From a virus (lineage: Duplodnaviria > Caudoviricetes): a DNA stretch of 64,000 bases. Below the pieces are notes generated by a model. It was given only the letters and a program-made list of their open reading frames with translations, was not told the origin of the DNA and searched no databases. The stretch lies in IMG/VR virus record IMGVR_UViG_3300025598_000001, positions 2,195 to 66,194 of that record; one strand, written 5' to 3'. The position numbers and the translations under genes were made by a program. Of this stretch, positions 1-56,180 are shown one piece after another (the stretch's first letter is position 1; every line of letters begins with the position of its first letter).

Positions 1-382
1 AGACCCTAATGAAAGAGGAATTAGATTACCAAGCGGATTGTTAATGCGTTACGACAAGTTAGTACAAGTATCAGAGGATGGCAAAACGCAGTATCAGTAC
101 AAAACTCGTTATGGGTGGAATAAGATTTATGGTGGTAAAGTTATAGAGAACGTCTGTCAAGCAATCGCTCGTTGCATTATTGGTGAGCAGATGTTGGAGA
201 TTGCAAAGAGGTATGACGTGGTTCTTACTGTGCATGATGCTATTGCATGTATTGTGCCGGAAGCAGAGGTTAACGAAGCTCAAGCCTATATCGAAAGTTG
301 TATGCGTAATACACCCGATTGGGCGGAAGGCTTGCCAGTAAATTGTGAGTCAGGTTATGGAAAAAGTTACGGAGATTGTTAA
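1..382 (+). CDS. Family A DNA polymerase, C-terminal fragment (gene starts before the window)
   Basis: YGGKVIENVCQAIAR, motif C-like VLTVHDAI and terminal WAEGLPVNCESGYGKSY, typical of APSE-like phage PolA. Confidence 0.88.
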   Translation, partial: DPNERGIRLPSGLLMRYDKLVQVSEDGKTQYQYKTRYGWNKIYGGKVIENVCQAIARCIIGEQMLEIAKRYDVVLTVHDAIACIVPEAEVNEAQAYIESCMRNTPDWAEGLPVNCESGYGKSYGDC

Positions 383-551
383 AGTGGAATATTCAACATA
401 CTATTTAGAAGCAATGAAAAACATTAAAGAAGCACACAATGCCTTGTTAAAAGGTAAGTTTCAAGAAGCATACGAGCATTGCATAGATGCACAAGTAGAA
501 ATGAGATTGATGGGTAACGCAGTTAGAACTTGGGCAGAGACAAATGACTGA
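345..551 (+). CDS. Hypothetical protein
   Basis: ORF coupled to both neighbours; true start may be slightly downstream. Confidence 0.55.
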   Translation: MSQVMEKVTEIVKVEYSTYYLEAMKNIKEAHNALLKGKFQEAYEHCIDAQVEMRLMGNAVRTWAETND

Positions 552-780
552 TAAAGTAATTCCATTTACAGGTGATACTCGGGGTGACATTGATCCCGAT
601 GAATTGTTTGATGGTAACAGAGGCATATATGAATGTGCTATTGTTATTGGATACACTAAAGAAGGGGCTGAACGCTTAGTATCTTCTACAGGTGACTCAG
701 CATTGATGGTATGGTTACTAGAAAGAGCCAAGCGTATTATTCTTGAAAGTGCCGATTTCAACGACGAATGGGAACACTGA
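544..780 (+). CDS. Hypothetical protein
   Basis: ORF overlapping both neighbours in the operon. Confidence 0.6.
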   Translation: MTDKVIPFTGDTRGDIDPDELFDGNRGIYECAIVIGYTKEGAERLVSSTGDSALMVWLLERAKRIILESADFNDEWEH

Positions 781-1445
781 TGAAAATCCCAGCATGGTCA
801 TACTCAAGCATTAAGCTATTCGACCAATGCCCTAAAAAGTTTTACCATTTGCGTGTGGCTAAAGATGTTAAAGAGCCACCAACAGATGCGATTCTTTATG
901 GCAAACAGTTTCACGAAGCGGCTGAGTTATACATCAGAGATGGCATATCTATACCCCCACAGTTTAGTTTTATTCAGCCATCGTTAGATGCCCTCAAAGC
1001 TATAGAAGGTGAGAAGCATTGCGAACTAGAAATGGGACTAACTGAAAACTTAGAGCCATGTGGGTTTAAAGATAAGGATGTTTGGTGGAGAGGGGTAGCT
1101 GACTTAGCCATAATCAATGGCGAAGAAGCACGATGCCTAGATTATAAGACTGGAAAGTCTGCCAAGTATGCCGATACTGACCAGCTAGAACTGATGGCTC
1201 TTGCCATGTTTAAGCATTTTCCTGATATTAAAGTAGTCAAAGGTGCGTTATTCTTCGTTATAAGTAAGAACTTTATAAAGGACTCGTATAACGCTAAAAA
1301 TCAGGATAAAATGTGGGAGAAGTGGCTGGCAGAGTACAACAAGATGAAGTTTGCATACGAGAATGATATATGGAATCCTCGCCCTAGTGGACTTTGCCGA
1401 AAGCACTGTTTGGTGCTAGAGTGCGCCCATAATGGAAGGAACTAA
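780..1445 (+). CDS. Cas4-like PD-(D/E)XK exonuclease
   Basis: WSYSSIKLFDQCP, G..FH, GVADL...DYKTGK, QLELMA and C-terminal CxxxCxxxxC; ATG at 780 overlaps the upstream TGA. Confidence 0.85.
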   Translation: MKIPAWSYSSIKLFDQCPKKFYHLRVAKDVKEPPTDAILYGKQFHEAAELYIRDGISIPPQFSFIQPSLDALKAIEGEKHCELEMGLTENLEPCGFKDKDVWWRGVADLAIINGEEARCLDYKTGKSAKYADTDQLELMALAMFKHFPDIKVVKGALFFVISKNFIKDSYNAKNQDKMWEKWLAEYNKMKFAYENDIWNPRPSGLCRKHCLVLECAHNGRN

Positions 1446-1446
1446 T

Positions 1447-1791
1447 ATGCCGTATGTAAACAAACCAAGACCTTATAAAAAAGAATACGAACAACAAAAA
1501 GCCCGAGGCGAAGAGAAGCGTCGGATGGAACGTCAACGTGCAAGACGTGCGATTGATAAGATGTATCCTGATAAAAATAAAAACAAAGAAGCGGATATCC
1601 GTGAAGGTAAAGATGTAGCCCACGTCAAAGCATTAGACAAGGGTGGTTCAAATAAGCAAGGTGTTTTCATTGAAAGCGCTAGCGGTAATCGTTCTTTTAA
1701 AAGAGATAGTAAAAGCAACTTAGTTAGGGAAACCACTAAGAAAGAAAAAGGCGAGAAGAAGTTAAGCAAGGTTGTAAAGTTAAAGAAGTAG
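1447..1791 (+). CDS. Basic HNH-like protein
   Basis: KDVAHVKALDKGGSN...SASGNRSF resembles the HNH core D-H-x-x-P/A-L-x-x-G-G-x-N...N-R. Confidence 0.6.
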   Translation: MPYVNKPRPYKKEYEQQKARGEEKRRMERQRARRAIDKMYPDKNKNKEADIREGKDVAHVKALDKGGSNKQGVFIESASGNRSFKRDSKSNLVRETTKKEKGEKKLSKVVKLKK

Positions 1792-1818
1792 TAGTAAACT
1801 AGAAGTACAAAATTACAA

Positions 1819-1845
1819 AGGTGAAGTGGGAGACCACTTTCACCT
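1819..1845 (+). promoter_or_regulatory. Hairpin with GNRA (GAGA) loop in the helicase leader
   Basis: AGGTGAAGTGG-GAGA-CCACTTTCACCT, one bulged base, no U-tract. Confidence 0.55.
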
Positions 1846-1868
1846 GATAACGCTTCGCTGGAGAATGT

Positions 1869-3407
1869 GTGGAAATCATAGACAACAAGGCATTGTTGCT
1901 TAATTTGCGTAACCCTAACAAGGTTACAACGGTTATACCCAAGAGTAAACAAGTCGGTAACAATCAAGTGGTTGTTAACTGGGGCTTGGATGAAGCACGA
2001 GTTTTAAGAAACCTACAAATAAAAAACATCCCATCACCTATTATTGGTAAGTACAACTGGCCCGGAATGTACAAGCCGTTTGAACATCAAAAAGATACTG
2101 CGTCATTCCTTACACTAAACCCAAGAGCTTTCTGCCTAAACGAACAGGGAACTGGTAAAACTGGCTCGGTCATTTGGGCGGCTGATTACTTAATGAAAGT
2201 AGGTAGAATCAAGCGTGTATTGGTTATCTGCCCTCTATCTATTATGGATTCGGCATGGAGAGCCGACCTGTTTAAGTTTGCTATGCACCGCCATGTAGAT
2301 ATTGCTCACGGTTCAAAAGAAAAGCGTACAAAAATTATTAACTCCGATGCTGAGTTTGTCATTATCAATTACGATGGTGTTGAAATTGTGCAAGAAGAAA
2401 TAGCTAATGGTGGGTTTGACCTAATCGTTATTGATGAAGCGAACGCTTATAAAAATTCACAGACTACACGTTGGAAAACACTAAACCGAATCCTCAAGCC
2501 TGATACATGGCTATGGATGTTAACAGGTACACCAGCCGCACAATCACCGGTAGACGCATATGGTTTGGCTAAGTTAGTAAACCCACAAGGTGTACCTAAG
2601 TTTTACTCAGCGTTTAAAGATTCTGTGATGTATAAGATTTCTCAGTTTAAATGGGTAGTTAGACCTGATGCGCAGAAGGTAGTATTTGAAGCATTACAAC
2701 CAGCTATTAGGTACACTAAAGAAGAGTGTCTTGATTTGCCTGAACTAATGTATACCACAAGGGAAGTCGAACTTACGCCCCAACAGAAAAAATACTACGA
2801 CCTGCTACGCAGACAACTTGTTATGCAGACTTCAGGCGAGCAAGTTACTGCTGTTAACGCTGCAGTGGGATTAAGCAAGCTACTACAAATATCTTGTGGC
2901 GCAGTGTATTCGGATTCGGGGGAAACCTTGGAATTTGATATTAAGAACCGCTATAAGGTGTTAAGGGAAGTGATTGATGAAACAAAGCAAAAGATATTAA
3001 TATTTGTACCATTTAAAAATACAATTAAAATCCTTGCGGAAAAACTACAAAGCGATGGGTTTACAACTGCTGTTATCAACGGCGACGTAGCCCATAATCA
3101 ACGCACTGAGATTTTCAAGAAATTTCAAGAAACTCCAGACCCACGCATCCTACTTATCCAACCTCTTGCGGCGGCACATGGAGTGACTTTAACGGCGGCT
3201 GATACCGTTGTTTGGTGGGGTCCTACACCAAGCCTAGAAGTATATGCACAAGCTAATGCACGTGCGCATAGAGCCGGACAAAAGCATCCAGTTACAGTAG
3301 TAAGGTTGCAAGGAAGCAACGCTGAAAAACATTTGTATAAAATGCTTGACAACCGTATCACTGATAATACAAAATTAGTTGATCTTTACAAGGATTTACT
3401 TGATTAA
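1869..3407 (+). CDS. SNF2-family (SF2) DNA helicase
   Basis: EQGTGKT Walker A, VICPLS, LIVIDEAN, LTGTP, HGVTLTAA, QANARAHRAGQ. Confidence 0.93.
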   Translation: MEIIDNKALLLNLRNPNKVTTVIPKSKQVGNNQVVVNWGLDEARVLRNLQIKNIPSPIIGKYNWPGMYKPFEHQKDTASFLTLNPRAFCLNEQGTGKTGSVIWAADYLMKVGRIKRVLVICPLSIMDSAWRADLFKFAMHRHVDIAHGSKEKRTKIINSDAEFVIINYDGVEIVQEEIANGGFDLIVIDEANAYKNSQTTRWKTLNRILKPDTWLWMLTGTPAAQSPVDAYGLAKLVNPQGVPKFYSAFKDSVMYKISQFKWVVRPDAQKVVFEALQPAIRYTKEECLDLPELMYTTREVELTPQQKKYYDLLRRQLVMQTSGEQVTAVNAAVGLSKLLQISCGAVYSDSGETLEFDIKNRYKVLREVIDETKQKILIFVPFKNTIKILAEKLQSDGFTTAVINGDVAHNQRTEIFKKFQETPDPRILLIQPLAAAHGVTLTAADTVVWWGPTPSLEVYAQANARAHRAGQKHPVTVVRLQGSNAEKHLYKMLDNRITDNTKLVDLYKDLLD

Positions 3408-3431
3408 GATAAACTTTAACAGGAGAATATT

Positions 3432-3842
3432 ATGGATGAAAAAGTAGAATCACCGCTTGAGAAGTGGACTCGAATCTACATTAAGATGAGAGAAAAGAAG
3501 GCGGAAGTAACGCATGAATTAGAAGAAAAAATTGCCAAGATAGAAGAGGATATGAAGGTTATTAAAACTGCTATCCTTGACCATATGAAAGAGATTGGCG
3601 CTGAAAGTTTAAAGACAAATGCGGGTGTAGTGTATCGTACTGTACGTACCACATATTCAACATCTGATTGGGAATCTATGGGCAAGTTTATTCTTGAACA
3701 TGGTGTGCCTGAATTATTGGAGAAGCGGTTGCACCAAACCAATATGAAGGCATTTTTAGAAGACTACCCCGAGTTGCTTCCTCCGGGGCTTAACGCAAAC
3801 ATGGAGTATTCCGTGACCATAAAAAGGAGTAAAAATGGTTGA
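3432..3842 (+). CDS. Conserved phage replication-module protein (coiled coil plus beta C-terminus)
   Basis: RBS AACAGGAGAAT; SLKTNAGVVYR...DWES...ELLEKR...LPPGL pattern seen in APSE-like replication modules. Confidence 0.7.
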   Translation: MDEKVESPLEKWTRIYIKMREKKAEVTHELEEKIAKIEEDMKVIKTAILDHMKEIGAESLKTNAGVVYRTVRTTYSTSDWESMGKFILEHGVPELLEKRLHQTNMKAFLEDYPELLPPGLNANMEYSVTIKRSKNG

Positions 3843-4107
3843 AGAATCTTTTGTCCCGATAGAAGGGGTAGCCAAGCATTTTTCGGTGTCTATCTCGACT
3901 GTACGTGCATGGATTCGTCAGAGCCTAGTACCCTCACTGAAGATTGGCGGTGTATACCGTTTCAAGATTAGCGAAGTAGAACAAGCCCTACGAAAACTAA
4001 GCGGCGGAGAATTAGTAAGAGAAGAAGTAGATGGGAGTCTAACGGTGCAAGCACCTGCAGGATCAACCCAAATGGTATTAAATTTTAACCCTGACGAAGA
4101 TATTTAA
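3835..4107 (+). CDS. Excisionase/MerR-like helix-turn-helix DNA-binding protein
   Basis: VAKHFSVSISTVRAWIRQSLVPSLKIGGVYRFKISEV matches the HTH_17-type pattern. Confidence 0.85.
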   Translation: MVEESFVPIEGVAKHFSVSISTVRAWIRQSLVPSLKIGGVYRFKISEVEQALRKLSGGELVREEVDGSLTVQAPAGSTQMVLNFNPDEDI

Positions 4108-4118
4108 GGAGAATGACA

Positions 4119-4988
4119 ATGAGTGATTTAGCTCTATTTAAAGGTGGTTTACCTTCCTACTTAAAAGGTACAGATGATGCAACTAACGCACTTGCTGGTA
4201 CAAAAGATGGTGGTGGTTTAGGCGCACGTCGCATTAGTATTAAAGGCGGAGTATTCCGTGAGTTCATTGGCGGTAAAGAATATCGTGTATCTGAAGAACG
4301 TTCAATGAATGTAGTTATTGTTAAAGCTGCACCGAAAGTATCCCGTATTTACTATAGCGGAAGCTACTCCGAAGGTGAAGCCGTATCCCCAACTTGCTGG
4401 TCATCCGACAGCCAAAAACCTGATGAAGCCGTTAAGAATAAGCAGTCAGCCACCTGCTTAAACTGTGCGCAAAACATTAAGGGTTCTGGTCAGGGTGATA
4501 GCCGTGCCTGCCGTTATCAACAGCGCCTCGCAGTCGTGATCGATGGTGAGATTGATAAGGAAGAAGTTTACCAATTAGTACTGCCACCAACTTCCGTATT
4601 CGGTGACGGTGAGAAAGGTAAGCTCCCTCTACAGGCATATGCTCGCCATCTTAAGAACCACGGTACCCCCATTACCGGTGTTGTTACTGAGATGCGGTTT
4701 GACACAGCAAGCCCTACACCAAAGTTGGTATTTAAACCTGTGCGTCCTGTGACCGAAGAAGAGTTCTTAAAGATTCAAGAACTTAAGGATTCTAAAGAAG
4801 CAGTACAGGCTATTACTTTGACTGTAGCGCAGACTGATGGTGTTAAGGAAAAAGCTAAACCTGCACTATCCGCACCTGTAGTTGAAGAAGTTGAAGTTGA
4901 AGAACCTAAGAAAGCAGTTTCCAAGAAAGCTCAAGTATCTAACGAACCTAAGTTAGAGAGTTTGATTGGTGAATGGGATGATGCTTAA
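4119..4988 (+). CDS. Putative ssDNA-binding/annealing protein
   Basis: RRISIKGGVF, Cys cluster PTCWSSD...CLNC...SRACR, acidic aromatic C-tail GEWDDA; lies between helicase and primase. Confidence 0.65.
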   Translation: MSDLALFKGGLPSYLKGTDDATNALAGTKDGGGLGARRISIKGGVFREFIGGKEYRVSEERSMNVVIVKAAPKVSRIYYSGSYSEGEAVSPTCWSSDSQKPDEAVKNKQSATCLNCAQNIKGSGQGDSRACRYQQRLAVVIDGEIDKEEVYQLVLPPTSVFGDGEKGKLPLQAYARHLKNHGTPITGVVTEMRFDTASPTPKLVFKPVRPVTEEEFLKIQELKDSKEAVQAITLTVAQTDGVKEKAKPALSAPVVEEVEVEEPKKAVSKKAQVSNEPKLESLIGEWDDA

Positions 4989-5000
4989 TTAATGTTTTAC

Positions 5001-5092
5001 GGGGGGAAAACGCAGGTCGGCTCGGCGACCTTAAATAGCCTGTATGCAATCATTGTTGATATGATTCTCCTTCACATTGCGTGAGTACCCCC
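5001..5092 (+). ncRNA. Candidate structured RNA with loop-E/sarcin-ricin-type internal loop and an anti-SD segment
   Basis: GGGGG/CCCCC and ACGCA/TGCGT helices flank GAAA/GAGTA; inner hairpins GGTCG/CGACC and AATCAT/ATGATT; contains ATGATTCTCCTT. Confidence 0.6.
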
Positions 5093-5107
5093 ACCTTAAA
5101 GGTGGCT

Positions 5108-7981
5108 ATGAACAATTTAGAATTTTTACAGCAAGTCCTTGGCGACGAAGGATACTACTGCATAGTTGGATTAAAGAAGGATTCGGACAAACCCGTACAG
5201 AAATTCTTTAAAACACTAGAAGATGCTGTGGCAGTTGCAGAGAATTTAAAGAACGAAGGCTACAACGCTTACTATGCGCTAGCCACGTTTGAAGATGGGA
5301 AATCTAGAAAAACTGCTAATGTAAAGCAGTTGCGGTCTTTGTTTATTGATTTGGATTGTGGTCAGGGTAAACCCTATGAAACACAAGAAGAAGCGTTACT
5401 AGACTTAAAACGGTTCTGTCAAGTAACAAAAATGCCGAAACCAACGCTGGTAAACTCCGGCGGGGGTATACACGCATACTGGGCTTTAGAAGAGCCGCTA
5501 AGCCGTGAACAATGGACACCCCTAGCTGAGAAGCTAAAGAAGATGTGCGACGAGCATGACCTCTTTGCTGACCCCGTAGTAACTGCGGATTCGGTGCGTA
5601 TTCTACGAGTCCCCGGAACTTTAAACTTTAAAAATGATGTTGCTAGACCAGTTGATTTAATCGGTAGCTCATCAGGCTCATATAGTTATGACACACTAAA
5701 AGATGTTATAGGTGATCCGGTACTAGAGAGAAAACCATATATCCCACGTGGGGAGATGGACGAAGTAACTAAGGCTATCCTTGGTAACTATACCAATAGG
5801 TTTAAGACAATCCTGATGAAGACCATGAAAGGTGAGGGCTGTCAACAACTTGAGCATATAATTAAAGCGCAAGCCACAATGCCTGAACCGCAGTGGAGAG
5901 CAGGGCTATCTATTGCCAAATTTTGCATAGATGCGGATATTGCAATTAAAAAGATATCTGAACATCACCCCGAATATAGCCCAGAGTTTGCAGACCGCAA
6001 GGTACGTGGTATCAAAGGCGGACCATATACTTGCGCTAAGTTTGAAGAATATAACCCCGGCGGTTGCGATGGTTGTGTAAATAAAGGGGCAATTAAATCC
6101 CCCATCGTGCTGGGTCGTGAAGTATTAGAAGCTAACGATGACGATAACATTGTAGAAGATGTTCCGTTCCAAGTAGAACAAGGGCACACACAGACATACG
6201 TTATACCGAAATACCCTGAGCCATACTTCCGTGGTAAGAACGGAGGAATCTTTAAGCGTGTAATTAAACAAGAAGACGAGATCGAAGTTCAGGTTTATCA
6301 CAACGATATTTATGTATCACGCAGACTACTGGATTCGGATGTGGGTGAGGCTGTAGTCGTTCGATTACATCTACCGCAAGACGGAGTACGGGAGTTTACC
6401 GTGCCATTAACGGCAGTAACTTCCAAGGACGAACTTAGAAAGTATATATCTTCTAAGGGTGTAGCCGTAGTTAAAACTGACGAGCTTATGTCTTACCTGA
6501 CAACGTGGGTAAACCACCTGCAATATAAAGGTAAAGCCGATACCGCTAGACGGCAGTTCGGTTGGGTAGACGACAAATGCGAAGCGTTTGTGCTTGGCGA
6601 TAAAGAGATCAGTGCTGATAGGGTAGACCATAATCCAGCATCCTCGGCTACAACACAAATGTTTAGTGCATTTAAAACTAAAGGCACGATGGAAGCATGG
6701 AAAGAAGCCATGAACTTTTACAACAAGCCTGACATGGAAGTCCACAAGTTTATGATTGGGTTATCGTTTGGTTCTATTTTTACCGAGTTCACTCCAATCA
6801 ATGCGTCGTTATTACATGTGTACAGCCCTGAATCCGGCATTGGTAAAACTACTGCGCTGTTTGCAGGAGCCAGCATTTGGGGCGAACCTACCAAGCTGTT
6901 GCTAAAGGAAACCGATACAGTAAACTCTAAGATGAACCGTGCCGAGGTATATAACAACCTGCCGTTGATGCTGGATGAGTTAACAAACTCTACGGCTAAA
7001 GACGCTAGTGATTTTGTATATCAATACAGTTCCGGTACACAGAAAAACCGTATGTCAGGCGCTTCTAATGCGGAACGGGTAAGGGGTGAACCTTGGAAAC
7101 AAAACGGCATCAGCACCGGAAATAGCTCCCTAATGGAAAAGATTAGCGCATATAAAGCTATTCCTAAAGGTGAAGCCATGCGTATTTTAGAAGTACGTGC
7201 CCGAAAAGTAGAGGGTTTGGATAAGACCGAAACCGACGTATTGAGTGCGGCTTTACAGAATAACTATGGGCATGCTTACCTACCTTACCTGCAGTATGTA
7301 ATGAATGACATTACAGGGATTAAAGAACTATATAAATCTACACAATTAAAGATAGATAAGCGTTGTGAGTTTGGACCTGAAGACCGATTCCATTCGGTGC
7401 TTGTAACTAACGGCATCATGGGGTTGATGGTTGCTAAACGTGTAGGATTAGTTAATTATGATATTAAACCCGTCGTAGATTTTATTGTTGAAATAGCTAA
7501 GAATGCCAAGAGTCAAGTTAAATCTATGGACGTTGATGCGGAAGGTGTATTAACTAATTTTGTGGCAGAGAATTGGAATAGTATGCTACGAATTAAAAGT
7601 ACGGAAGACACCCGTGTAAATAAAAAAGATGAGGTAGACCACTTAGTTATTCCCGATGCTACCCCAAAACTTACTTTTGTTATACGATACGAGTATGATT
7701 TAAAAATGATGTATATATACCCCAATCCTTTACGGGAGTGGTGTGTTAAAAAGCAAATAAATTATGAAGGACTTATTGATTCTTTAAAGCGTGGTAGGAC
7801 CAAAGCTCAAATGGAAAAGAAACGTATGGGCAAAGGCACTAGAATTAACTTACCACCACTAAAGGTACTGTGGGTTAACTGCGATGGGTTTATGGATGAA
7901 GACAGAGAAGAACAAATTGCCTCCGTTGCGCAACACAAGGAAGCCATTGAAAGTGCTGAAGGAGGGGCAAGTGTGTCCTGA
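5108..7981 (+). CDS. Primase-helicase (RepB-like primase N-terminus, DUF927-type region, P-loop helicase)
   Basis: FIDLDC, NSGGGIHAYW, RILRVPGT primase motifs; CAKF...CDGC; FGW; ESGIGKTT Walker A; LMLDE Walker B. Confidence 0.88.
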   Translation: MNNLEFLQQVLGDEGYYCIVGLKKDSDKPVQKFFKTLEDAVAVAENLKNEGYNAYYALATFEDGKSRKTANVKQLRSLFIDLDCGQGKPYETQEEALLDLKRFCQVTKMPKPTLVNSGGGIHAYWALEEPLSREQWTPLAEKLKKMCDEHDLFADPVVTADSVRILRVPGTLNFKNDVARPVDLIGSSSGSYSYDTLKDVIGDPVLERKPYIPRGEMDEVTKAILGNYTNRFKTILMKTMKGEGCQQLEHIIKAQATMPEPQWRAGLSIAKFCIDADIAIKKISEHHPEYSPEFADRKVRGIKGGPYTCAKFEEYNPGGCDGCVNKGAIKSPIVLGREVLEANDDDNIVEDVPFQVEQGHTQTYVIPKYPEPYFRGKNGGIFKRVIKQEDEIEVQVYHNDIYVSRRLLDSDVGEAVVVRLHLPQDGVREFTVPLTAVTSKDELRKYISSKGVAVVKTDELMSYLTTWVNHLQYKGKADTARRQFGWVDDKCEAFVLGDKEISADRVDHNPASSATTQMFSAFKTKGTMEAWKEAMNFYNKPDMEVHKFMIGLSFGSIFTEFTPINASLLHVYSPESGIGKTTALFAGASIWGEPTKLLLKETDTVNSKMNRAEVYNNLPLMLDELTNSTAKDASDFVYQYSSGTQKNRMSGASNAERVRGEPWKQNGISTGNSSLMEKISAYKAIPKGEAMRILEVRARKVEGLDKTETDVLSAALQNNYGHAYLPYLQYVMNDITGIKELYKSTQLKIDKRCEFGPEDRFHSVLVTNGIMGLMVAKRVGLVNYDIKPVVDFIVEIAKNAKSQVKSMDVDAEGVLTNFVAENWNSMLRIKSTEDTRVNKKDEVDHLVIPDATPKLTFVIRYEYDLKMMYIYPNPLREWCVKKQINYEGLIDSLKRGRTKAQMEKKRMGKGTRINLPPLKVLWVNCDGFMDEDREEQIASVAQHKEAIESAEGGASVS

Positions 7982-8168
7982 CGGAGTGGTTATTGATATA
8001 AACTGGGATAATTTTCATGTGGGGATGTCTGTTTTTGTCCCTGCCGTCAACCTATCAATGTTAGACAAACAAATGCAAACTATTGCAAAAGATAAAGGAA
8101 TTGTAATAAAAGGTTTTGACCGAATTGAAAATAAAAAGCTAGGTATGCGCTTTTGGAGAATTGTGTAA
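7884..8168 (+). CDS. Hypothetical protein (start uncertain)
   Basis: Last ORF of the replication operon; ends GMRFWRIV. Confidence 0.6.
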   Translation: MGLWMKTEKNKLPPLRNTRKPLKVLKEGQVCPDGVVIDINWDNFHVGMSVFVPAVNLSMLDKQMQTIAKDKGIVIKGFDRIENKKLGMRFWRIV

Positions 8169-8176
8169 TATACTAT

Positions 8177-8257
8177 ACGTGCAACAACACATTCTCCTGT
8201 TGCATGTTCTCGTGAGGAACTCCTTGATCCCCGGCTCAAAAGGCTGGGGATTTTTTT
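8177..8257 (+). ncRNA. Candidate small RNA with an anti-SD hairpin loop, ending in an intrinsic terminator
   Basis: 10-bp stem 8177-8186/8198-8207 with loop ACACATTCTCC; second CTCCTT at 8220; -10-like TAATAT/TATACT at 8166-8174. Confidence 0.6.
8227..8257 (+). terminator. Rho-independent terminator at the convergent replication/late junction
   Basis: ATCCCCGGC-TCAAAAG-GCTGGGGAT followed by a T-tract. Confidence 0.85.
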
Positions 8258-11200
8258 AATAGTCTTCCATATCTTGTTGGATAACTTTAAGACGCTTCTT
8301 GTTATATCGCACACCAGCAATCATTTCTTTGGTTGCACGATCTTGAGCTTTTATAGATGTAGCCAATATGTCGTTAATGTTACCGCCATTGATACCAATC
8401 TCAGGATGTTTTTGACCTAACTCAAGTAACTTATCACGCATATCTAACATACCATCTACATCGCCTTCACGTCTAGCAATGTAATAACGTTGTTTAAATT
8501 TACTTTGGCGATCAGATATACTCTTATCAATACCTTTTTCACGGTCATTGATTTCCATTTGTTTAATATAATTAGATGGTGCAAACCCTAGGGCTTGTGC
8601 AAGAACATTTCCGGTACTAACATCCCCAGTAATAGGATCACCACGAAGCGTTTCTGTGCCTTGTGTAGCATATCTATACGCTTTAAAAGTATTAGCAATA
8701 GCCGAAGGTAGCAAGTCTTCTACACCACGCTCAAAATGCCCTTGTGCAATCTTACTAAATCCACGTTCAAAGTTTTGCTCAACACCAAGGACAGGACCAC
8801 CTAATGCCTGCATAACTTGTTGAGAGAATGTATTTGTAGATGATGCTGTTGTAGTATCACGAATAAGCAAATCACTTAAACCGATACGGCTGGCAATAGA
8901 TAAGTTAGTCATATACTCAATAGGACCTTTGTAAAGAAGATCACCTATAGTTTTTTCGGTAGCACCTTTTAAGTCATCTTCGTCATTATCACGGAATAAA
9001 TTATAAAGAACTGACAAAGCACCAAACATAGGCAAACCTTGCGCACCAGCCATCAGTGCAGTCATACCCAATACACCACCAAGTTGTCTTAATCCAGCGG
9101 CTCTTATTTCAGGAGATTCTCCTTTAGTTGCATCCCTATATGCTTTAAATAACATGTAGTACATAGAGATTGCATATCGTTTATACATAAACCCTATTTT
9201 TCCTAAAGCACTTTGGGCAATACGTGGCGCAGATGCTGAGGATATATTTCCGTTAGTCATCTCATTTACATCAATAGCTTTATTGGTAGCGTATATTTGT
9301 GTAGCTTCTTCAGTAGAAACAGGTCTATCGTAACGTAATTCTGCTTCTTTACGTGCTTCTTCTATACCTGCAACGTCTTGTGCATTTGGCTTTTTAAGTC
9401 TTTCCATTTCAAGCTTATATGTAGCAATCATAGTTACTTCACGGTTCATACGTTCAGTATGATGAAGCATCCAACCACTCATAGATTTAAACTTTTGCCA
9501 TATGTTTCCGTTAATATCCCCTTGTAAAATCTCACCTAATTGAGAACGATTAAGCTGACCATTTTCATTAAGAGTGCGAACAAAAATTTCATACTCCTTA
9601 CCTATAGCCGAATTTGGTTGGTAATTAGCAATAGACTGTCTTACTTTCATGCCTACAGTTACGGGCTTACCAGTAGTTTCGTCTATGGAACCAAGCACAT
9701 TAGTTTGAGCAGTTGTACCGCTACCCATAAATATCTTAACTGCGTCGCCTATAGTTTTAGTAATATTAGCATTAGGGTAGGCAGCCTTCAACGAAGGCAT
9801 AACAATCATTGGTATGTTAGCTGTTTGAACAATAGCAGAAGATGGGTTAAAGCCCATTGTGTAAATAAACGCCGCCGATTGTAGAACGTTACCAAAATTA
9901 TCACGGCTAGGGTTTTTAATGTAGCCTATGCGTTTTTCAAACTCATCTAAGTAACGAGATTGCTCAACGTTATTTCTGCCTTTGATATCTTCCTTAACTT
10001 GGTTACCAAAAGCGTCTATTTCACCGGCGGCAATACCTTTACCAACTTGGTAAGTATGTAACCTCATTCTATCAAGAATGTTATCAAACTTAGGGGTATA
10101 TACCATGTTAGTAATTTGATGAGCCATACCACGCATCTTTTTTTCAAAGACAGCAATAGAATCTTCCATGTAACCTGCACGACCAGAGCGCCGTTGGAAA
10201 GATTGAGCAAGTGCTGTTTCCGGCAAAGTAGCTACAAACAATCGCATCATCTCTTCGATTGCGTCAGTAGGAACCTTATTAATTTCCATAATACGCAGTG
10301 CGTTATTTATAAAAGAGCTTGGAGGCGCACGGCGATAATCTATATCGGATACTTGTCTATACATATCTGAACGTGCATTTGGATCCATTGCCAGAATTTC
10401 TTTTTGGCGCATTTCTCTTTCCCGTGGGGATTTAAATGCTCTAACTTCAAATTCTTTTTGCCCATTTTTATCAATAAAGTTTGAAGCTAACCAATGCTCC
10501 CCCTCACGACCTAATGAGAAGTATGGCTCAATTACGCCAGACTTAGTTAAGCTTTCCATAATATCTTTATAGACAAGCTCTTTAGTTTCTTTACCAAGTT
10601 CGGTAGCCTCAATACGGGACTTAATAGCTTTTTTAATTTCTTCAAACATTTGCTTATAAGCATCACGCATTACGCTGTATGAGCGTTTCCATGCAGGTGC
10701 AAGCTGGTTGTATTGTTTATTTAGTTCATCCCATACTTCTTGCTTAGATCTATTATCTCGAGTTTCTTGGTTTTTATAATAGTCCCGTGGCTTAGTCGGA
10801 TCAACTTCGGCAATAGTAGAGCTATTAACAAGTTTGTTATATGGGGTTTTTTGTTGCGGGGCAACTTCAAGTGCATGTCTAAGTATTTCTTTAGCACCTT
10901 CTACACCTCTTGTTAGGCTATGCTCAAACCCACTTTTTTGGTCTACAAGCCTGTTAAGCATAGGGGCTAATTTACCAAAAGCATCTTTAGCCATATCAGT
11001 CAAAGCATGTAATGGGGCAAACGATAGTGCGGCAGAACTAGCATTATCTTTAGTATTAGATACAGCAGCACTCCAAGCATTCTTTTGTTCTTCACTTATG
11101 TATGGTACACTTTCAACAAGGTCACCTACGATATTAGCAAAGTCTTTACCTTTCTTAACCGCCATCTGGTATTGAGCTTGCCCTTCATCATCTAGGTTAT

Positions 11201-41374: not shown

Positions 41375-41955
41375 AATTTTATGGAGATGTGCGTGACCAA
41401 CTAGGCAAACGAGCAACTGGGTTTGACTTTATTTTTAATTACCTTAAAGATATCCGTAACCCATTTATTGCAGAGACAGGCTGCGCTAGGCAAGAGAATA
41501 ACTATGAAGGTGATGGCTTAAGTACTTTGTTATTTGACAAATACATAAATGAGTATGGCGGATACTTAGCAGCTGTAGACATCTCGCCCGTAAGCGTACA
41601 GTTTGCCCTTAGTCACATGGTTTGTCCTAGAACCAAGATTGTTCAATCGGATAGCGTTGATTTTTTAAAAATGCTTAATACTGATTTGCAACATGATAAA
41701 GTAAAGATTGATTTTTTATACCTAGATAGTTTTGACTGGACTGAACAACTACAAGTAGAAAGTGCTACACATCATCTTAAAGAGTTAGAAGCAATTATGC
41801 CTAGCCTAAAACCCGGTGCTTTAATTGGCGTAGATGATAACTGGAAAATAGGTAATACTAGAGTAGGTAAAGGTTGGATGGTGCTAGATTATTTAGCTAG
41901 TTTAGGTATGCAACCTGTATTTGACGAATACCAAATATTCTGGATTTATAAATAA
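41371..41955 (+). CDS. Class I SAM-dependent methyltransferase
   Basis: IAETGCAR, AVDIS, DSVDFL, IDFLYLDSFD, LKPGALIGVDD, GKG. Confidence 0.82.
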   Translation: MKFYGDVRDQLGKRATGFDFIFNYLKDIRNPFIAETGCARQENNYEGDGLSTLLFDKYINEYGGYLAAVDISPVSVQFALSHMVCPRTKIVQSDSVDFLKMLNTDLQHDKVKIDFLYLDSFDWTEQLQVESATHHLKELEAIMPSLKPGALIGVDDNWKIGNTRVGKGWMVLDYLASLGMQPVFDEYQIFWIYK

Positions 41956-41985
41956 AAAACCCCCGAGCCTTTTGAGCCGGGGGTT
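41954..41985 (-). terminator. Rho-independent terminator after the major capsid gene (convergent junction)
   Basis: Minus strand CCCCCGGCTCAAAAGGCTCGGGGG followed by TTTTTT. Confidence 0.8.
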
Positions 41986-42020: not shown

Positions 42021-42923
42021 TTAGTAAGAACCGTAGATTCCCAATGGGTCAGAAACACCGAAGGAATAACGCTCACGAGACTTGTAACGTACGTTACCAG
42101 TATCAAAGTCGCCGTCCATGCTGTTCTGCAATGGGATACGAACAAAGTGCTTCAAACCGTTTGGAACATCAGTGGTCAAGAACCATGCGTTGGTTGCGGT
42201 CAAGAAGTGGTTAATTGTGTAACCTTCTGGAACAGAACCGTTGTTCTTAATTGCATTGATGTCGTTGTTGTTTGTACCAACACGGAGTTCAGTATCGAGC
42301 AAACGAGTTGCAACGAACTGAAGTGCAGGAGGAACAACCAACTTCTTAGGTTTAGCAGCGATCAAGAGACCACGCTCATCAGTCCAAGCAGCAATTTGAA
42401 TAACAGCATTTTCTAATGCAGTTTCGTTCAAGTCAGCAGGAGTAGATGGAGTGTTGGCGTTAACACCACCAGAAATCAAAGGATGTGCTGTTGAGAACAA
42501 TGCTTGTCCGTCACCGTATGTTACTTGGGTGTTGAAACCGTTGTTCAAAACTGCAGCAGCTTTAACCTGTTTGGTGTAAGCCATAGCACGAGCTAAGCCT
42601 TTGGTGTAGCGAGCTGATAAAGAATCGTAGAGGTTATCTTCGATTGCTTCTTCGGTCAAGCTAAAGCCAAGAGCGATAGTTTCGTGGTTGTAACGAGCTG
42701 TCCATGCTTCTTGCGCATTGTCGTAAGCGATGGCTTGGCCTTCGTTCTTGACTGGTGCAGCGCTAAAGCCTGACAGTTTTGTTTCTTCTTCAAAAGAACG
42801 CTCAGAGGTCTCTGTTTCGTAGATCTCTTTGTGTTCTTCACCATAGCGAGCGTACTCCAAACCGAACAAAGCGTTCAATCCGGGGAGCAACTCTTTTAGT
42901 AGTTGGGCACGAGAAATAGCCAT
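42021..42923 (-). CDS. Major capsid protein
   Basis: MAISRAQLLKELLPGLNALFG, SERSFEE, ALGFSLTEEAIEDNLY, DFDTGNVRYKSRERYSFG; followed by a terminator. Confidence 0.93.
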   Translation of the reverse strand: MAISRAQLLKELLPGLNALFGLEYARYGEEHKEIYETETSERSFEEETKLSGFSAAPVKNEGQAIAYDNAQEAWTARYNHETIALGFSLTEEAIEDNLYDSLSARYTKGLARAMAYTKQVKAAAVLNNGFNTQVTYGDGQALFSTAHPLISGGVNANTPSTPADLNETALENAVIQIAAWTDERGLLIAAKPKKLVVPPALQFVATRLLDTELRVGTNNNDINAIKNNGSVPEGYTINHFLTATNAWFLTTDVPNGLKHFVRIPLQNSMDGDFDTGNVRYKSRERYSFGVSDPLGIYGSY

Positions 42924-42938
42924 TTAAATGCTCCTTAA

Positions 42939-43814
42939 TTAAATACCAGTAGCATTCATGTAACTCTGATAACCAAAGTTCCATGTTACTAATGCTTCTG
43001 GATAGCCGGTGAATGAAAACTGTGCAGCGGTTGATTGTGCAGTAGTAACTGCGGCGCTCAACGTAACAGCAGTGCCGTTTACTTGGGTAACCCAAGTGTT
43101 AGAACCAGCATTAATGCCGGGGCCTGAAACTGCCATGCCGGGCTGAATAGCTGAGTTAGCAGCAGACAAAGTCAAGGTTGTGCTTGAAGTTGTAGCGTTA
43201 CCGGTAACAGTAACAGCAGATGCTGTAACGAGCTGAACAATACGGAATGGAGCAGCAGCAACGTTTGGACTTAAAACGCCAGTACCAATAGCGGTAGTAG
43301 CAATAGCAATACCAGCAGCAGAATCGCCAGTAGTTGTAGAGCCAGTGTTGCTATTGAGTGCGCCTAAATAGTAAGCATTAGAACCAACAAAAGCTGGGTT
43401 AATGTACTGAATAGTGCTGGAGTTAGAAGTACCGTTTGCCAATACTACAGTTTGGAAAACTGCTTGAGGATCATCAACAACATAGCCGATAGCATCAGGA
43501 GCGCTTGTAGAAGCATTCCAGTACTGATAGCGGTTTTTGCCGTAGATTGGGCCACCGGTTGTGGAATATTCACAACCAACAAAAATACCAATAGAACCAC
43601 CAGTTGCAGTACCCGTTGTTGGGTTGAGGGTAGAAGCAATCAGTGTACCTTGTGTTGCACCAGAAGCACCTAATTGAACAACGTCACCGTTGTAAAGGCT
43701 GGTTGAATAGCCGTTAGTGATAGGGAACATGCGGGTAGAACCAGCAAATACACGACCACCAATTAGGTTAACTGGCTTTAGCCCGTAAGGGGCTGATACT
43801 GTAGGATAAGCCAT
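42939..43814 (-). CDS. Capsid-associated structural (decoration/cement) protein
   Basis: APYGLKPV..IGG, GIFVGCEY, YVVDDP; immediately upstream of MCP. Confidence 0.7.
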   Translation of the reverse strand: MAYPTVSAPYGLKPVNLIGGRVFAGSTRMFPITNGYSTSLYNGDVVQLGASGATQGTLIASTLNPTTGTATGGSIGIFVGCEYSTTGGPIYGKNRYQYWNASTSAPDAIGYVVDDPQAVFQTVVLANGTSNSSTIQYINPAFVGSNAYYLGALNSNTGSTTTGDSAAGIAIATTAIGTGVLSPNVAAAPFRIVQLVTASAVTVTGNATTSSTTLTLSAANSAIQPGMAVSGPGINAGSNTWVTQVNGTAVTLSAAVTTAQSTAAQFSFTGYPEALVTWNFGYQSYMNATGI

Positions 43815-43830
43815 TTAAATCTCCTAAAAT

Positions 43831-52854: not shown

Positions 52855-52948
52855 ATTTATATGGATTGGGAATTGTCAGCTCGACCATTGCAGATGTAAC
52901 TTTACATCTAAGTTATTAACTGACAAACAACTTAACAGGAGAATCACT

Positions 52949-53817: not shown

Positions 53818-53870
53818 ATATTATAGAGTGGTAAAGCGTAGTAAATATTATTAACAACAGGAGAATCATC

Positions 53871-56000: not shown

Positions 56001-56024
56001 CTTTACATCTAACAGGAGAATGAT

Positions 56025-56180
56025 ATGGATAAATTGCTGATTGGTTCTAAGTTAAGGTCATTGATTGAACACTACGCAGAAGTTACGACGGAAGAACACA
56101 TGACTGGAAAACTAAACAAAGAAGCAGATAAAACATGGAATGAAATAACGCAGTTAATCAATAAATTAACAGGAGAATAA
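56025..56180 (+). CDS. Hypothetical protein, 51 aa (not in ORF track)
   Basis: RBS AACAGGAGAATG; MDKLLIGSKLRSLIEHY...KLTGE. Confidence 0.65.
   Translation: MDKLLIGSKLRSLIEHYAEVTTEEHMTGKLNKEADKTWNEITQLINKLTGE

What the first reader, a model, noticed from the sequence alone, without database searches (positions are those of the whole stretch)
8166..8257. Candidate anti-Shine-Dalgarno sRNA able to pair with the shared RBS of early/replication genes
Seen: this gap folds into a 10-bp stem (8177-8186/8198-8207) with an 11-nt loop ACACAUUCUCC, followed by a second CUCCUU and a terminator, with -10-like hexamers just upstream. The loop is the exact complement of the helicase RBS region GGAGAATGTGT (1860-1870). 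Loop plus 3' strand (ATTCTCCTGTT) is the exact complement of AACAGGAGAAT before genes at 3418, 52934, 53856, 56011 and 56168, with 9-10 nt matches at 53147, 53352, 58377, 60047, 61079 and 4106. Late-gene RBSs I inspected (AAGGAGCA, AGGAGATT, AAGGAGCC, AAGGAGTC, AAGGAGTA) lack the GAAT extension. Established: loop-displayed anti-SD seeds are used by trans-acting sRNAs. Inference: one RNA could shut off a whole temporal gene class, acting as an early-to-late switch. I know of no description of this in such phages. Caveat: any anti-SD matches SD cores, so the argument depends on the flanking bases.
Basis: partly seen in the sequence, partly recalled or inferred. Interest (0 to 1): 0.85.

Follow-up and report, generated by a model that had tools for sequence, protein, structure and literature searches.

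The report
Phage small RNA mirroring early ribosome sites
An uncultured freshwater phage and its many relatives carry a small RNA gene of about 77 bases whose exposed, most conserved stretch mirrors the unusual ribosome-binding site shared by the phage's own early genes, so it probably switches their translation off, although nobody has yet seen the RNA.

Summary
Window 8166-8257 is a convergent gap. Its + strand folds into a hairpin with an open ACAUUCUCC-containing loop, then a strong intrinsic terminator (z = -5.5). The loop plus 3' arm is the exact complement of AACAGGAGAAT, found 5 times on the + strand, each before a gene, and nowhere else. GGAGAAT follows the SD in 11 of 19 +-strand sites and 0 of 19 late sites.

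New evidence comes from 88 distinct versions of the gap in related uncultured phages. 82 begin with a TAnnnT (-10-like) hexamer. Hairpin 1 starts 5-7 nt after it in 66 of 82. CTCCTGTT is invariant in 33 aligned versions, and the stem varies only through G-U pairs that fit the + strand. Across 18 genomes, 97 of 300 early-strand sites against 6 of 201 late-strand sites have 8 or more contiguous complementary bases. Seed flanks and early-RBS flanks change together between clades (13 of 362,880 permutations).

Best reading (about 0.55): a trans-acting anti-RBS small RNA that represses the early gene class. No transcript data exist, and no RNA run holds this phage. The proposed cis sequestrator and the second CUCCUU are not conserved.

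This scan has noted the same kind of element in other phages. I found no paper describing it.

The parts
7971..8168 (+). Small conserved gene (about 65 aa from GTG 7971; core CPDG...KLGMRFWRIV*). It overlaps the end of the 966-aa primase/helicase-like gene. Its last codons and stop codon abut the -10-like box of the RNA element.
   Evidence: ORF and sequence. The 64-aa core is conserved in 12 aligned relatives, mean column identity 75%. No PHROG or Pfam family.
8169..8174 (+). TATACT, a -10-like hexamer (TAnnnT) directly after the stop codon TAA 8166-8168. Proposed promoter of the small RNA. No -35 match.
   Evidence: 82 of 88 distinct gaps start with TAnnnT. In alignment A2 the only invariant columns before the hairpin are T1, T4, A5 and T9, of which T4, A5 and T9 are hexamer positions 1, 2 and 6 and T1 is the first base of the stop codon. 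Two relatives whose hexamer is uncoupled from the stop codon keep it 6 nt before the hairpin. The two-hexamer scan finds no site here.
8181..8257 (+). Predicted small RNA of about 77 nt, from the inferred start about 7 nt after the hexamer to the end of the terminator U-run.
   Evidence: The start is inferred from -10 spacing. Hairpin 1 begins 5-7 nt after the hexamer in 66 of 82 distinct elements. Fold of 8181-8257. No transcript data.
8177..8207 (+). Hairpin 1: stem 8177-8186/8198-8207, of which the conserved core is 8181-8186/8198-8203 (GCAACA/UGUUGC). The loop is 8187-8197, ACACAUUCUCC.
   Evidence: Fold. Consensus structure of 33 distinct relatives has 6 pairs, 14 G-U cells, no A-C cell, and 2 pairs with compensatory double changes. 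Loop unpaired probability is about 0.9.
8190..8202 (+). Seed: AUUCUCCUGUU (8191-8201) is the exact complement of AACAGGAGAAU. CUCCUGUU is invariant in relatives.
   Evidence: exact complement. (invariant columns C29-T36, CTCCTGTT, in 33 distinct sequences whose flanks vary).
8206..8225 (+). Weak hairpin 2 (GUUCU/GGAAC, 8206-8210/8216-8220) and the second CUCCUU (8220-8225). The GTTC...GAA frame is conserved. The CUCC is not.
   Evidence: Folds. Alignment A2.
8226..8257 (+). Intrinsic terminator: stem-loop 8226-8252, then a U-run to 8257. It is oriented for the + strand only.
   Evidence: 11 pairs, 6 G-C. A terminator is present in relatives. The - strand reading has no T-run after the stem.
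1860..1870 (+). Predicted target: the helicase RBS and GTG start, GGAGAATGTGT, the 11-nt complement of the loop.
   Evidence: Best duplex energy of all 96 translation initiation regions, -27.4 kcal/mol.
3418..3428 (+). Predicted target: AACAGGAGAAT before the gene at 3432.
52934..52944 (+). Predicted target: AACAGGAGAAT before the gene at 52949.
53856..53866 (+). Predicted target: AACAGGAGAAT before the gene at 53871.
56011..56021 (+). Predicted target: AACAGGAGAAT before the gene at 56025.
56168..56178 (+). Predicted target: AACAGGAGAAT before the gene at 56183. Further 8-10-nt matches lie at 4107, 51714, 53147, 53352, 54864, 58377 and 60047.

Best explanation
Window 8169-8257 is a small RNA gene of the phage.

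Anatomy: a -10-type promoter element (TATACT) abuts the stop codon of the last gene of the replication block. Transcription would start about 7 nt later, right at the foot of a 5' hairpin. It ends at a strong intrinsic terminator, giving an RNA of about 77 nt.

Proposed action: the hairpin loop and its 3' arm display AUUCUCCUGUU. This seed pairs with the private, extended ribosome-binding site (A)ACAGGAGAAU carried by the early and replication genes on the + strand. It does not pair that way with the (U)AAGGAG-type sites of the late virion genes. Pairing over the Shine-Dalgarno sequence, and at the helicase gene over the start codon too, should block 30S binding. The duplex may also invite RNase attack. 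The early gene class would then be turned down as the RNA accumulates.

Shown:
- the structure;
- its conservation, single copy and strand;
- the class-specific complementarity;
- the matched change of seed and RBS flanks between clades.

Inferred:
- the transcription start;
- that the RNA exists as a discrete species;
- the direction of regulation (repression);
- the timing.
For: Structure:
- z = -5.54, and 0 of 200 shuffles fold as well.
- + strand terminator.
- Loop unpaired probability about 0.9.

Conservation:
- Relatives were fetched by the neighbouring proteins: 27 loci, 80 of 169 and 80 of 138. They give 88 distinct gap sequences.
- 82 of 88 begin with TAnnnT.
- Hairpin 1 starts 5-7 nt after the hexamer in 66 of 82. 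CTCC/CCTC lies in its loop in 55 (plus 3 at the loop/3'-stem edge) and in the single-stranded stretch just after it in 17.
- In 33 aligned distinct versions CTCCTGTT is invariant while the flanks vary.

Strand:
- The stem varies through 14 G-U cells and no A-C cell, with 2 compensatory pairs.
- The terminator T-run is on the + strand only.

Promoter: in two relatives where the hexamer is no longer at the stop codon, it still lies 6 nt before the hairpin.

Single copy: the covariance model finds the expected gap in all 19 genomes (14 hits with E <= 3e-4, 5 weak), plus 7 weak hits elsewhere with E 0.018-0.96.

Class specificity:
- In the window, 11 of 19 + against 0 of 19 - GGAG-RBSs carry GGAGAAT.
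- Duplex energies are -13.54 for + and -11.70 kcal/mol for - initiation regions. 0 of 100 CTCC-preserving shuffles reach either the + value or the difference.
- Across 18 genomes, 97 of 300 + against 6 of 201 - sites have 8 or more contiguous complementary nt.
- Mean extension beyond GGAG is 3.0 against 1.34. + exceeds - in all 17 genomes compared, one of which has a single - site.

Covariation:
- Loops with AUUCUCCUGU go with RBS ACAGGAGAAU. Loops with UCCAUUCUCC go with GGAGAAUGGA. Loops with CUCUCUCC go with GGAGAGAG. Seeds with UCUCCUCC go with GGAGGA.
- With 9 clade representatives, 13 of 362,880 permutations reach the cognate score. The late-RBS control gives 37,089 of 40,320.
Against: - No transcript evidence: no RNA run holds this phage. 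The host is unknown and there is no cultured close relative.
- The promoter is a -10 hexamer alone. There is no -35 match, and the TG of an extended -10 is present only where the stop codon is TGA. The motif TAATATACT occurs nowhere else in the window.
- In the window itself the predicted stem starts 2 nt after the hexamer. Either the outer 4 bp lie outside the RNA or the RNA starts further upstream.
- Covariation is not universal. The cognate rank was 9-10 of 17 for G001, G010 and G016. The sites counted across related genomes are not independent.
- Whole-gap folding energy does not favour either strand, 41 against 41. For hairpin 1 alone + is more stable in 29 and - in 20 of 55, and the hairpins were defined on the + strand.
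- Late RBSs are not better matched to the canonical 16S tail than early ones (5.40 against 5.23 nt). Discrimination would therefore rest on the small RNA alone.
- No Hfq, RegB or CsrA gene in the phage. Any chaperone would have to be the host's.
Confidence: 0.55

Rival explanations
1. The element is not a separate gene. The anti-RBS hairpin works as the 3' UTR of the long early/replication mRNA that ends at this terminator, or as a fragment cut from it. It pairs with RBSs of the same or other early mRNAs, as the icaR 3' UTR pairs with its own SD in Staphylococcus aureus.
For: The element lies directly after the last gene of a + strand block and shares its terminator. The promoter evidence is a -10 hexamer only. 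In the window the stem starts 2 nt after the hexamer. The precedent is icaR, where a 3'-UTR UCCCCUG motif pairs with the SD, blocks initiation and creates an RNase III substrate (PMC3868564, abstract read).
Against: The TAnnnT hexamer keeps its distance to the hairpin, not to the stop codon. That is what a promoter predicts, and a 3' UTR has no need of it. The nearest cis partner (GGAGAAU in the W-R-I codons) is not conserved. This rival shares the pairing mechanism with the best explanation and differs only in how the RNA is made.
Confidence: 0.17
2. The RNA targets host mRNAs, for host shut-off or takeover. Its resemblance to the complement of phage early RBSs arises because those RBSs copy a host RBS type.
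For: Known phage small RNAs such as VpdS and PreS act on host RNAs (review PMC12197685, passages read). Any CU-rich seed will pair with many SD regions.
Against: The seed flanks follow the phage's own early-RBS flanks between clades, and late RBSs in the same genomes show no such signal. The host is unknown, so host targets cannot be examined. A 16-mer scan of bacterial genomes gave only hits scattered across unrelated phyla, as chance would.
Confidence: 0.1
3. The element is only a structural 3' end: a terminator plus an upstream hairpin that stabilises the early mRNA. The complementarity to RBSs is a by-product, for example an old inverted copy of a leader.
For: Hairpin-plus-terminator ends are common. 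The sub-threshold Rfam matches are generic small-RNA shapes.
Against: The invariant part is the loop and 3'-arm sequence CTCCTGTT, not the pairing. The 5' arm drifts through G-U. The flanks co-vary with early RBSs. A neutral relic would not stay invariant while the Arg codon 30 nt upstream runs through six synonymous forms.
Confidence: 0.08
4. The functional strand is the - strand. Late transcripts that read through from the 1866-aa gene would carry a hairpin displaying an early-type RBS (ACAGGAGAAU). This would act as a decoy or operator for a protein that recognises early RBSs, a RegA-, RegB- or CsrA-like factor.
For: There is no - strand terminator in the gap, so read-through is plausible. 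Covariation cannot tell the two strands apart. T4 RegB recognises GGAGRAYARAA at early RBSs, which resembles GGAGAAU (PMC3014915, passages read).
Against: All 14 single-sided stem changes are G-U on the + strand, which are C-A mismatches on the - strand. The -10 box and the terminator are oriented for the + strand. The - strand folds less well, z = -2.33. The genome has no RegB, CsrA or Hfq homologue. No conserved - strand ORF follows the RBS-like motif (read from the sequences).
Confidence: 0.06

Closest known systems
c4 antisense RNA of phages P1 and P7 (immI region)
   Same: A phage-encoded small structured RNA whose loop-displayed sequences pair with complementary sites around a ribosome-binding site of the phage's own mRNA and block translation (review PMC12197685, passages read).
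   Different: c4 controls one operon (antirepressor) for immunity in temperate phages. By my recollection it is processed out of the same transcript as its target. The element here has a -10 box of its own, sits in an apparently virulent freshwater phage, and matches the shared RBS of a dozen or more dispersed early genes. No sequence or Rfam relationship.
Bacterial anti-SD (C-rich loop) small RNAs: cuckoo/CcsR family, Mycobacterium 6C, S. aureus RNAIII/RsaE type
   Same: Hairpin loops carry a CU-rich anti-Shine-Dalgarno motif that is the only conserved sequence while the stems drift by compensatory change. One RNA is thought to occlude the RBS of many mRNAs (PMC4615179, passages read; PMC6486639, search listing and start of abstract only).
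   Different: Those are cellular RNAs with generic C-rich motifs (CCUCCUCCC, UCCC), and cuckoo RNAs have 2-4 repeated hairpins. Here there is one hairpin, and the seed extends into flanks (AUU...UGUU) that match a private RBS extension of one temporal gene class of the same phage. No Rfam family reaches its threshold.
T4 RegB endoribonuclease and RegA repressor (protein-based early-gene shut-off at the RBS)
   Same: Early mRNAs as a class are inactivated at their ribosome-binding sites. The discriminating signal is an extension of the SD: strong RegB sites have the consensus GGAGRAYARAA, which resembles the GGAGAAU of this phage's early genes. Middle and late mRNAs are spared (PMC3014915, passages read).
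   Different: RegB and RegA are proteins. This genome has no RegB homologue, and the class-specific reader proposed here is an RNA.
icaR 3' UTR-5' UTR interaction, Staphylococcus aureus
   Same: An anti-SD motif in the 3' end region of an mRNA pairs with the SD, blocks initiation complex formation and creates an RNase III substrate (PMC3868564, abstract read).
   Different: It acts on a single mRNA. Here there are many targets, and the promoter-like hexamer points to a separate transcript.
Betaproteobacteria toxic small RNA (Rfam RF02278), anti-hemB (RF02837) and Ref84 (RF02846)
   Same: These are among the best sub-threshold Rfam matches (Ref84 scores highest). They have the same general shape: a short RNA of one or two hairpins with a terminator.
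   Different: Scores are 18.3, 19.1 and 30.6 bits against gathering scores of 50, 49.5 and 52, so the element is not a member.

Membership tests
Any Rfam 15 family | Covariance-model score at or above the family's gathering score | tested here: not met
   0 matches in the whole window at gathering thresholds. With lax thresholds on 8100-8320 the best are Ref84 at 30.6/52, anti-hemB at 19.1/49.5 and RF02278 at 18.3/50 bits.
Cuckoo / CcsR (ar14) anti-SD small RNAs | 2-4 adjacent hairpins, each with the loop motif CCUCCUCCC (PMC4615179) | tested here: not met
   There is one seed hairpin. Its loop is ACACAUUCUCC in the window and UUCUCC in most relatives. No CCUCCUCCC.
Trans-acting base-pairing small RNA (general class) | Intrinsic terminator at the 3' end | tested here: met
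   8226-8252 plus a U-run, and present in relatives.
Trans-acting base-pairing small RNA (general class) | Own promoter, or a defined processing site giving a discrete 5' end | tested here: inconclusive
   A TAnnnT hexamer is present in 82 of 88 distinct gaps and lies 5-7 nt before the hairpin in 66 of 82. There is no -35 and no 5'-end data.
Trans-acting base-pairing small RNA (general class) | Conserved, accessible single-stranded seed | tested here: met
   CTCCTGTT is invariant in 33 distinct sequences. Loop unpaired probability is about 0.9.
Trans-acting base-pairing small RNA (general class) | Complementarity to target translation initiation regions beyond chance, and co-variation with them | tested here: met
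   0 of 100 CTCC-preserving shuffles reach the observed values. 97 of 300 against 6 of 201 sites. Permutation test: 13 of 362,880. The sites counted are not phylogenetically independent.
Trans-acting base-pairing small RNA (general class) | Discrete transcript detected, and regulation of targets demonstrated | not testable with these tools
   No RNA holder among the 24 runs listed. The host is uncultured.
P1/P7 c4 antisense RNA | Homology to c4 and the immI operon context (antirepressor ant/icd downstream) | tested here: not met
   No Rfam hit. The context is a primase/helicase-like gene plus a small gene, convergent with a DarB-like virion gene.
T4 RegB-type early mRNA inactivation | A RegB endoribonuclease gene (PF10715) | tested here: not met
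   No match at E <= 1 in the 66,194-bp genome. 20 of 44 + strand proteins scanned against Pfam showed none.

The most novel reading that the evidence does not exclude
Phages of several unrelated lineages tag their early genes with a private extension of the Shine-Dalgarno sequence. Each encodes a small RNA that reads that tag. A single RNA then acts as a class-wide translational off-switch, an RNA counterpart of T4 RegB/RegA, and sets the early-to-late transition.
Probability: 0.45. Interest if true: 0.85.

Novelty: new variant of a known kind. Interest (0 to 1): 0.72.

Why it matters
Temporal control in virulent phages is known mainly at the level of transcription, plus a few proteins such as RegA and RegB. 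Consider an RNA that recognises a private RBS tag on a whole temporal class. It would be a new layer of phage developmental control. It would explain why early genes in these genomes share an 11-nt RBS that pairs with 16S rRNA no better than an ordinary SD. It would also offer a compact, orthogonal pair of tag and reader for multiplex translational control in synthetic biology. The family is large: about 300 related loci were seen in lake metagenomes, and 88 distinct versions of the element were read here. Seed and tag vary naturally, so specificity rules could be read from the covariation. The prediction is directly testable with reporters in a laboratory host even though the natural host is unknown.

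Tried and rejected
- Cis sequestrator (GGAGAAU 8155-8161 pairing with the loop): rejected. The Arg codon of W-R-I is AGA 34, CGG 20, CGA 17, AGG 7, CGC 2 and CGT 2 in 82 distinct elements. 44 of the 74 elements with UCUCC have no upstream GGAGA.
- Second anti-SD element at 5001-5092 (note e1-6245509): the ATGATTCTCCTTCA stretch is shared only by the window and its 96%-identical relative L003. The other relatives keep the outer GGGGG...CCCCC frame with a variable insert. Its fold is not better than shuffles, z = -0.22.
- A - strand small ORF after the RBS-like motif: an open 17-codon frame exists in some genomes and is closed after 4 codons in L005/G002. It is antisense to the conserved gene end, so I do not take it as a gene (read).
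- Whole-gap MFE, + against - strand: 41 against 41, uninformative.
- Late RBSs better matched to 16S than early ones: not found, 5.40 against 5.23 nt.
- Repeated phage-specific promoter motif: TAATATACT occurs only here.
- RegB, Hfq and CsrA homologues: none.
- blastn of 7600-8700 against cultured phages: no match.
- 16-mer scan of bacterial genomes: 120 or more hits scattered over unrelated phyla, about what chance gives in 596 Gb. No host clue.
- Sequencing runs: no RNA holder listed. All 24 are DNA contigs of freshwater or other metagenomes.
- Literature: four full-text searches and the 2025 review of phage small RNAs gave no description of a phage RNA aimed at the shared RBS of a temporal class. 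The review's Supplementary Table S1 could not be opened (supplements are closed) and might list a case I did not see.
Full report
WHERE IT IS. The window is bases 2195-66194 of a 66,194-bp virus record with direct terminal repeats. It has no close cultured relative. blastn of the region against 50,697 phage records finds nothing. The large terminase is 43-48% identical to those of Pelagibacter phage HTVC027P, phage DSL-LC04 and Planktothrix phages. DNA runs that hold the sequence are freshwater metagenomes.

Genes on the + strand at 1-8168 and 51725-64000 are early or replication genes: a PD-(D/E)XK nuclease, a helicase, a 966-aa primase/helicase-like protein, an AAA ATPase and many small ORFs. 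Genes on the - strand at 8256-38936 and 42021-51369 are virion genes: portal, terminase, tail fibre and a 1866-aa DarB-like protein. The finding lies in the convergent gap between the last + gene, a small conserved ORF ending RFWRIV* at 8168, and the stop of the 1866-aa gene at 8256.

THE OBSERVATION. It is correct.
- The + strand of 8166-8262 folds into the stem 8177-8186/8198-8207 with the loop ACACAUUCUCC, a weak 4-bp hairpin and a terminator. MFE is -32.8 kcal/mol, z = -5.54, and 0 of 200 shuffles fold as well. The terminator is 8226-8252 plus a T-run. The - strand folds less well (-25.0 kcal/mol, z = -2.33).
- AACAGGAGAAT occurs five times on the + strand, each just before a gene start, and once on the - strand, which is 8191-8201. 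GGAGAATGTGT, the helicase RBS and GTG start, occurs once on each strand, the - copy being 8187-8197.
- Among GGAG-type RBSs followed by an ATG that opens at least 45 codons, 11 of 19 on the + strand and 0 of 19 on the - strand read GGAGAAT.
- No Rfam family and no tRNA lies here.

IS THE COMPLEMENTARITY MORE THAN AN ANTI-SD MEETING SD CORES? Yes. I paired 8181-8225 with the -22..+6 regions of 96 predicted genes.
- Mean duplex energy is -13.54 kcal/mol for 44 + genes and -11.70 for 52 - genes. 11 + genes against 3 - genes reach -17 or below.
- In 100 shuffles that keep both CTCC cores in place, the + mean was -11.05 +/- 0.64 and the +/- difference was +0.51 +/- 0.64. None reached the observed + mean or the observed difference. 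The same held for 100 full shuffles.
- With -30..+12 windows the means are -16.93 and -14.09 (Mann-Whitney p = 3e-4). The best targets are the helicase (1869), 4113, 59762 and 56025.

RELATIVES. The neighbouring proteins recover many uncultured relatives:
- 27 loci by the 966-aa protein, 50-96% identity;
- the best 80 of 169 metagenome loci by an alignment of the small protein;
- the best 80 of 138 viral loci by the same alignment.

Together they give 88 distinct gap sequences. One architecture recurs.
(i) Directly after the stop codon there is a TAnnnT hexamer in 82 of 88 (TATACT 32, TACACT 6, TATTAT 5, TATATT 5, TACGAT 5 and others).
(ii) After a variable spacer comes a hairpin. Its first paired base lies 5-7 nt after the hexamer in 66 of 82.
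(iii) A CU-rich motif follows. CTCC/CCTC lies in the hairpin loop in 55 (plus 3 at the loop/3'-stem edge), in the single-stranded stretch 2-13 nt after the hairpin in 17, elsewhere in 5, and is absent in 2.
(iv) A G+C-rich terminator with a T-run closes the element.

Of the six gaps that do not begin with TAnnnT, five were folded.
- One, L174, has lost the gap altogether; a similar gap in L072 was not examined separately.
- L180 has its stop codon 52 nt upstream. It keeps a remnant of the old gene end followed by TATAGT, and the hairpin begins 6 nt later.
- L084 has TAATCT 5 nt after its stop, and again the hairpin begins 6 nt later.
So the hexamer keeps its distance to the hairpin, not to the stop codon. 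That is what a -10 element positioned before a transcription start predicts.

CONSERVATION AND STRAND. In an alignment of 33 distinct versions, the only invariant columns before the hairpin are the first T of the stop codon and hexamer positions 1, 2 and 6. The longest invariant run of the whole element is CTCCTGTT. The consensus fold has six pairs for hairpin 1. Single-sided changes give 14 G-U cells and no A-C cell. Two pairs show compensatory double changes, G-C to A-U and C-G to U-A.
- G-U on the + strand is a C-A mismatch on the - strand, so the + strand is the folded RNA. This agrees with the direction of the terminator and the hexamer.
- The 3' arm (UGUU) never changes while the 5' arm drifts. 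The 3' arm is therefore constrained by more than pairing within the hairpin, as expected if it is part of a seed.
- Weaker tests: hairpin 1 alone is more stable on + in 29 and on - in 20 of 55 distinct sequences (Wilcoxon p = 0.008, with the hairpin defined on +). The whole gap shows no strand preference, 41 against 41.
- A covariance model built from the alignment finds the expected gap in all 19 genomes searched. 14 hits have E <= 3e-4 and 5 divergent ones have E 0.012-0.37. Seven other weak hits (E 0.018-0.96) were not examined. Several of the strong hits were in the training alignment, so the value of this search is to show that the element is single-copy.

EARLY AGAINST LATE, AND COVARIATION. 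I fetched 18 larger related records. I collected GGAG-type RBSs on both strands and measured contiguous identity between each RBS and the reverse complement of the cognate gap's CTCC context.
- Mean extension beyond GGAG is 3.0 nt for + sites and 1.34 for - sites (p = 1e-14). + exceeds - in all 17 genomes compared, one of which has a single - site.
- 97 of 300 + sites against 6 of 201 - sites have 8 or more contiguous complementary bases. In the window it is 12 of 19 against 1 of 19. These sites are not independent across related genomes.
- The flanks differ between clades in a matched way:
  - loop AUUCUCCUGUU with RBS aACAGGAGAAU (window, G002, G005-G008);
  - loop (A/U)UCCAUUCUCC with RBS GGAGAAUGGA (G001, G004);
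  - loop CUCUCUCUCC with RBS GGAGAGAG (G009, G017);
  - seed UUUCUCCUCC with RBS GGAGGAA (G014).
- It fails for the CAACUCUCCUGUUG clade (G010, G016), where the cognate ranks are 9 and 10 of 17, and it is weak for G001.
- With nine clade representatives and a double-centred score matrix, 13 of 362,880 permutations reach the cognate score. The same test on late RBSs gives 37,089 of 40,320.

HOW IT MOST LIKELY WORKS. Early promoters in the window look sigma-70-like: TTGACC-17-TATAAT at 52826-52854 and TGGACA-17-TATAAT at 53789-53817, both 11 of 12. The host polymerase therefore reads TAnnnT elements.
- I infer that a -10-only promoter (an extended -10 where the stop codon is TGA) starts an RNA at about 8181, at the foot of hairpin 1, and that the RNA ends at 8257.
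- Its loop is open, with unpaired probability about 0.9.
- The seed pairs with 8-14 nt centred on the SD of early mRNAs. At the helicase gene it also covers the start codon.
- Early RBSs match the RNA better than they match the canonical 16S tail (7.0 against 5.2 nt; 8.3 against 5.3 in the window). Late RBSs match both about equally (5.35 against 5.40).
- The expected outcome, by analogy with known anti-SD small RNAs, is occlusion of the 30S site and perhaps cleavage of the duplex.
- Timing, dose and the sign of regulation are all inferred.
- Because the gap has no - strand terminator, late read-through transcripts would be fully complementary to the RNA. This is an untested possibility for a further layer of control.

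RIVALS. There are four; each is set out with its evidence in the Rival explanations section.
1. A 3'-UTR or processed form of the same pairing device, with icaR as the precedent.
2. Host targets.
3. A purely structural 3' end.
4. A - strand RBS-mimic decoy for a protein.
For the last, it is notable that strong T4 RegB sites read GGAGRAYARAA, close to GGAGAAU. But the genome has no RegB, CsrA or Hfq homologue, and the strand evidence is against it.

The companion idea of a cis sequestrator is rejected. The second anti-SD element at 5001-5092 is not conserved.

COMPARISON WITH WHAT IS KNOWN.
- Loop-displayed anti-SD motifs that hit many mRNAs are established for cellular small RNAs. Examples are the cuckoo/CcsR family, whose loop motif CCUCCUCCC is the only conserved sequence, and the 6C RNA (search listing).
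- Phage RNAs that block a phage RBS are known for single operons: c4 of P1/P7 and sar of P22 (review passages).
- Class-wide inactivation of early mRNAs at the RBS is known for T4, by proteins.
- A phage RNA that reads a private RBS tag of a temporal gene class appears in none of the four full-text searches nor in the passages I read of the 2025 review. Its supplementary table could not be opened.
- The element belongs to no Rfam family.
I therefore rate it a new variant of a known kind.

EARLIER NOTES OF THIS SCAN. The same type of element has been noted and followed up in other phage genomes: giant lake phages, marine phages, Arthrobacter phages and other freshwater phages. One unfollowed note, e1-6226967, describes what looks like a member of this very family, with a TACAAT box and TTATTCTCCTGTTG. 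These are AI notes, not evidence. They gave me the icaR and cuckoo references, which I then read myself. They also show that the phenomenon may be general.

VERDICT. Confidence in the trans-acting anti-RBS reading is 0.55. Interest is 0.72.

Noticed in passing
window 51623-51645, 52508-52530, 52892-52912 (also before the RBSs at 56025 and 58388): An 18-bp palindrome of the form AGATGTAA-nn-TTACATCT lies downstream of sigma-70-like promoters and directly upstream of several early RBSs. In places it runs straight into AACAGGAGAAT. It could be a 5'-UTR hairpin or an operator.
   Followed up: no
window 41953-41982 (- strand): A 30-nt copy, 90% identical, of the terminator hairpin 8229-8258 sits in the other convergent gap, between 41955 (+) and 42021 (-).
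   Followed up: no
window 7947-8168 (+): A small ORF overlaps the end of the 966-aa primase/helicase-like gene in another frame. Its 64-aa core (CPDG...NWD...FIPA.N...RIE..KLGMRFWRIL) is conserved down to 46% identity in about 300 metagenomic loci, yet it matches no PHROG or Pfam family.
   Followed up: partly
window 5001-5092 (+): The leader of the primase/helicase-like gene keeps a conserved outer frame (GGGGG-GAAA...GAGUA-CCCCC, then ACCUU..AAGGUGG before the ATG) around an insert that differs completely between relatives. The anti-SD-like ATGATTCTCCTTCA is present only in the window and its closest relative.
   Followed up: partly
window + strand early RBSs (for example 3422, 52938, 53860, 56172): The early RBS extension GGAGAAU(a/c/g)a resembles the consensus of strong T4 RegB/S1 cleavage sites, GGAGRAYARAA (PMC3014915). 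The genome has no RegB homologue.
   Followed up: partly
L174 (and a similar gap in L072); L180 (and a similar gap in L080): Natural variants of the element. L174 has lost the whole gap, so its two convergent genes abut. L180 has a new C-terminus for the small protein and 52 nt of extra sequence, yet keeps the hexamer-hairpin-terminator unit intact. L072 and L080 show similar gap sequences; I did not check that they are the same contigs.
   Followed up: partly
window 52826-52854 and 53789-53817 (+): Near-consensus sigma-70 promoters (11 of 12 matches) lie in the early region. This suggests that early transcription uses the host polymerase.
   Followed up: no
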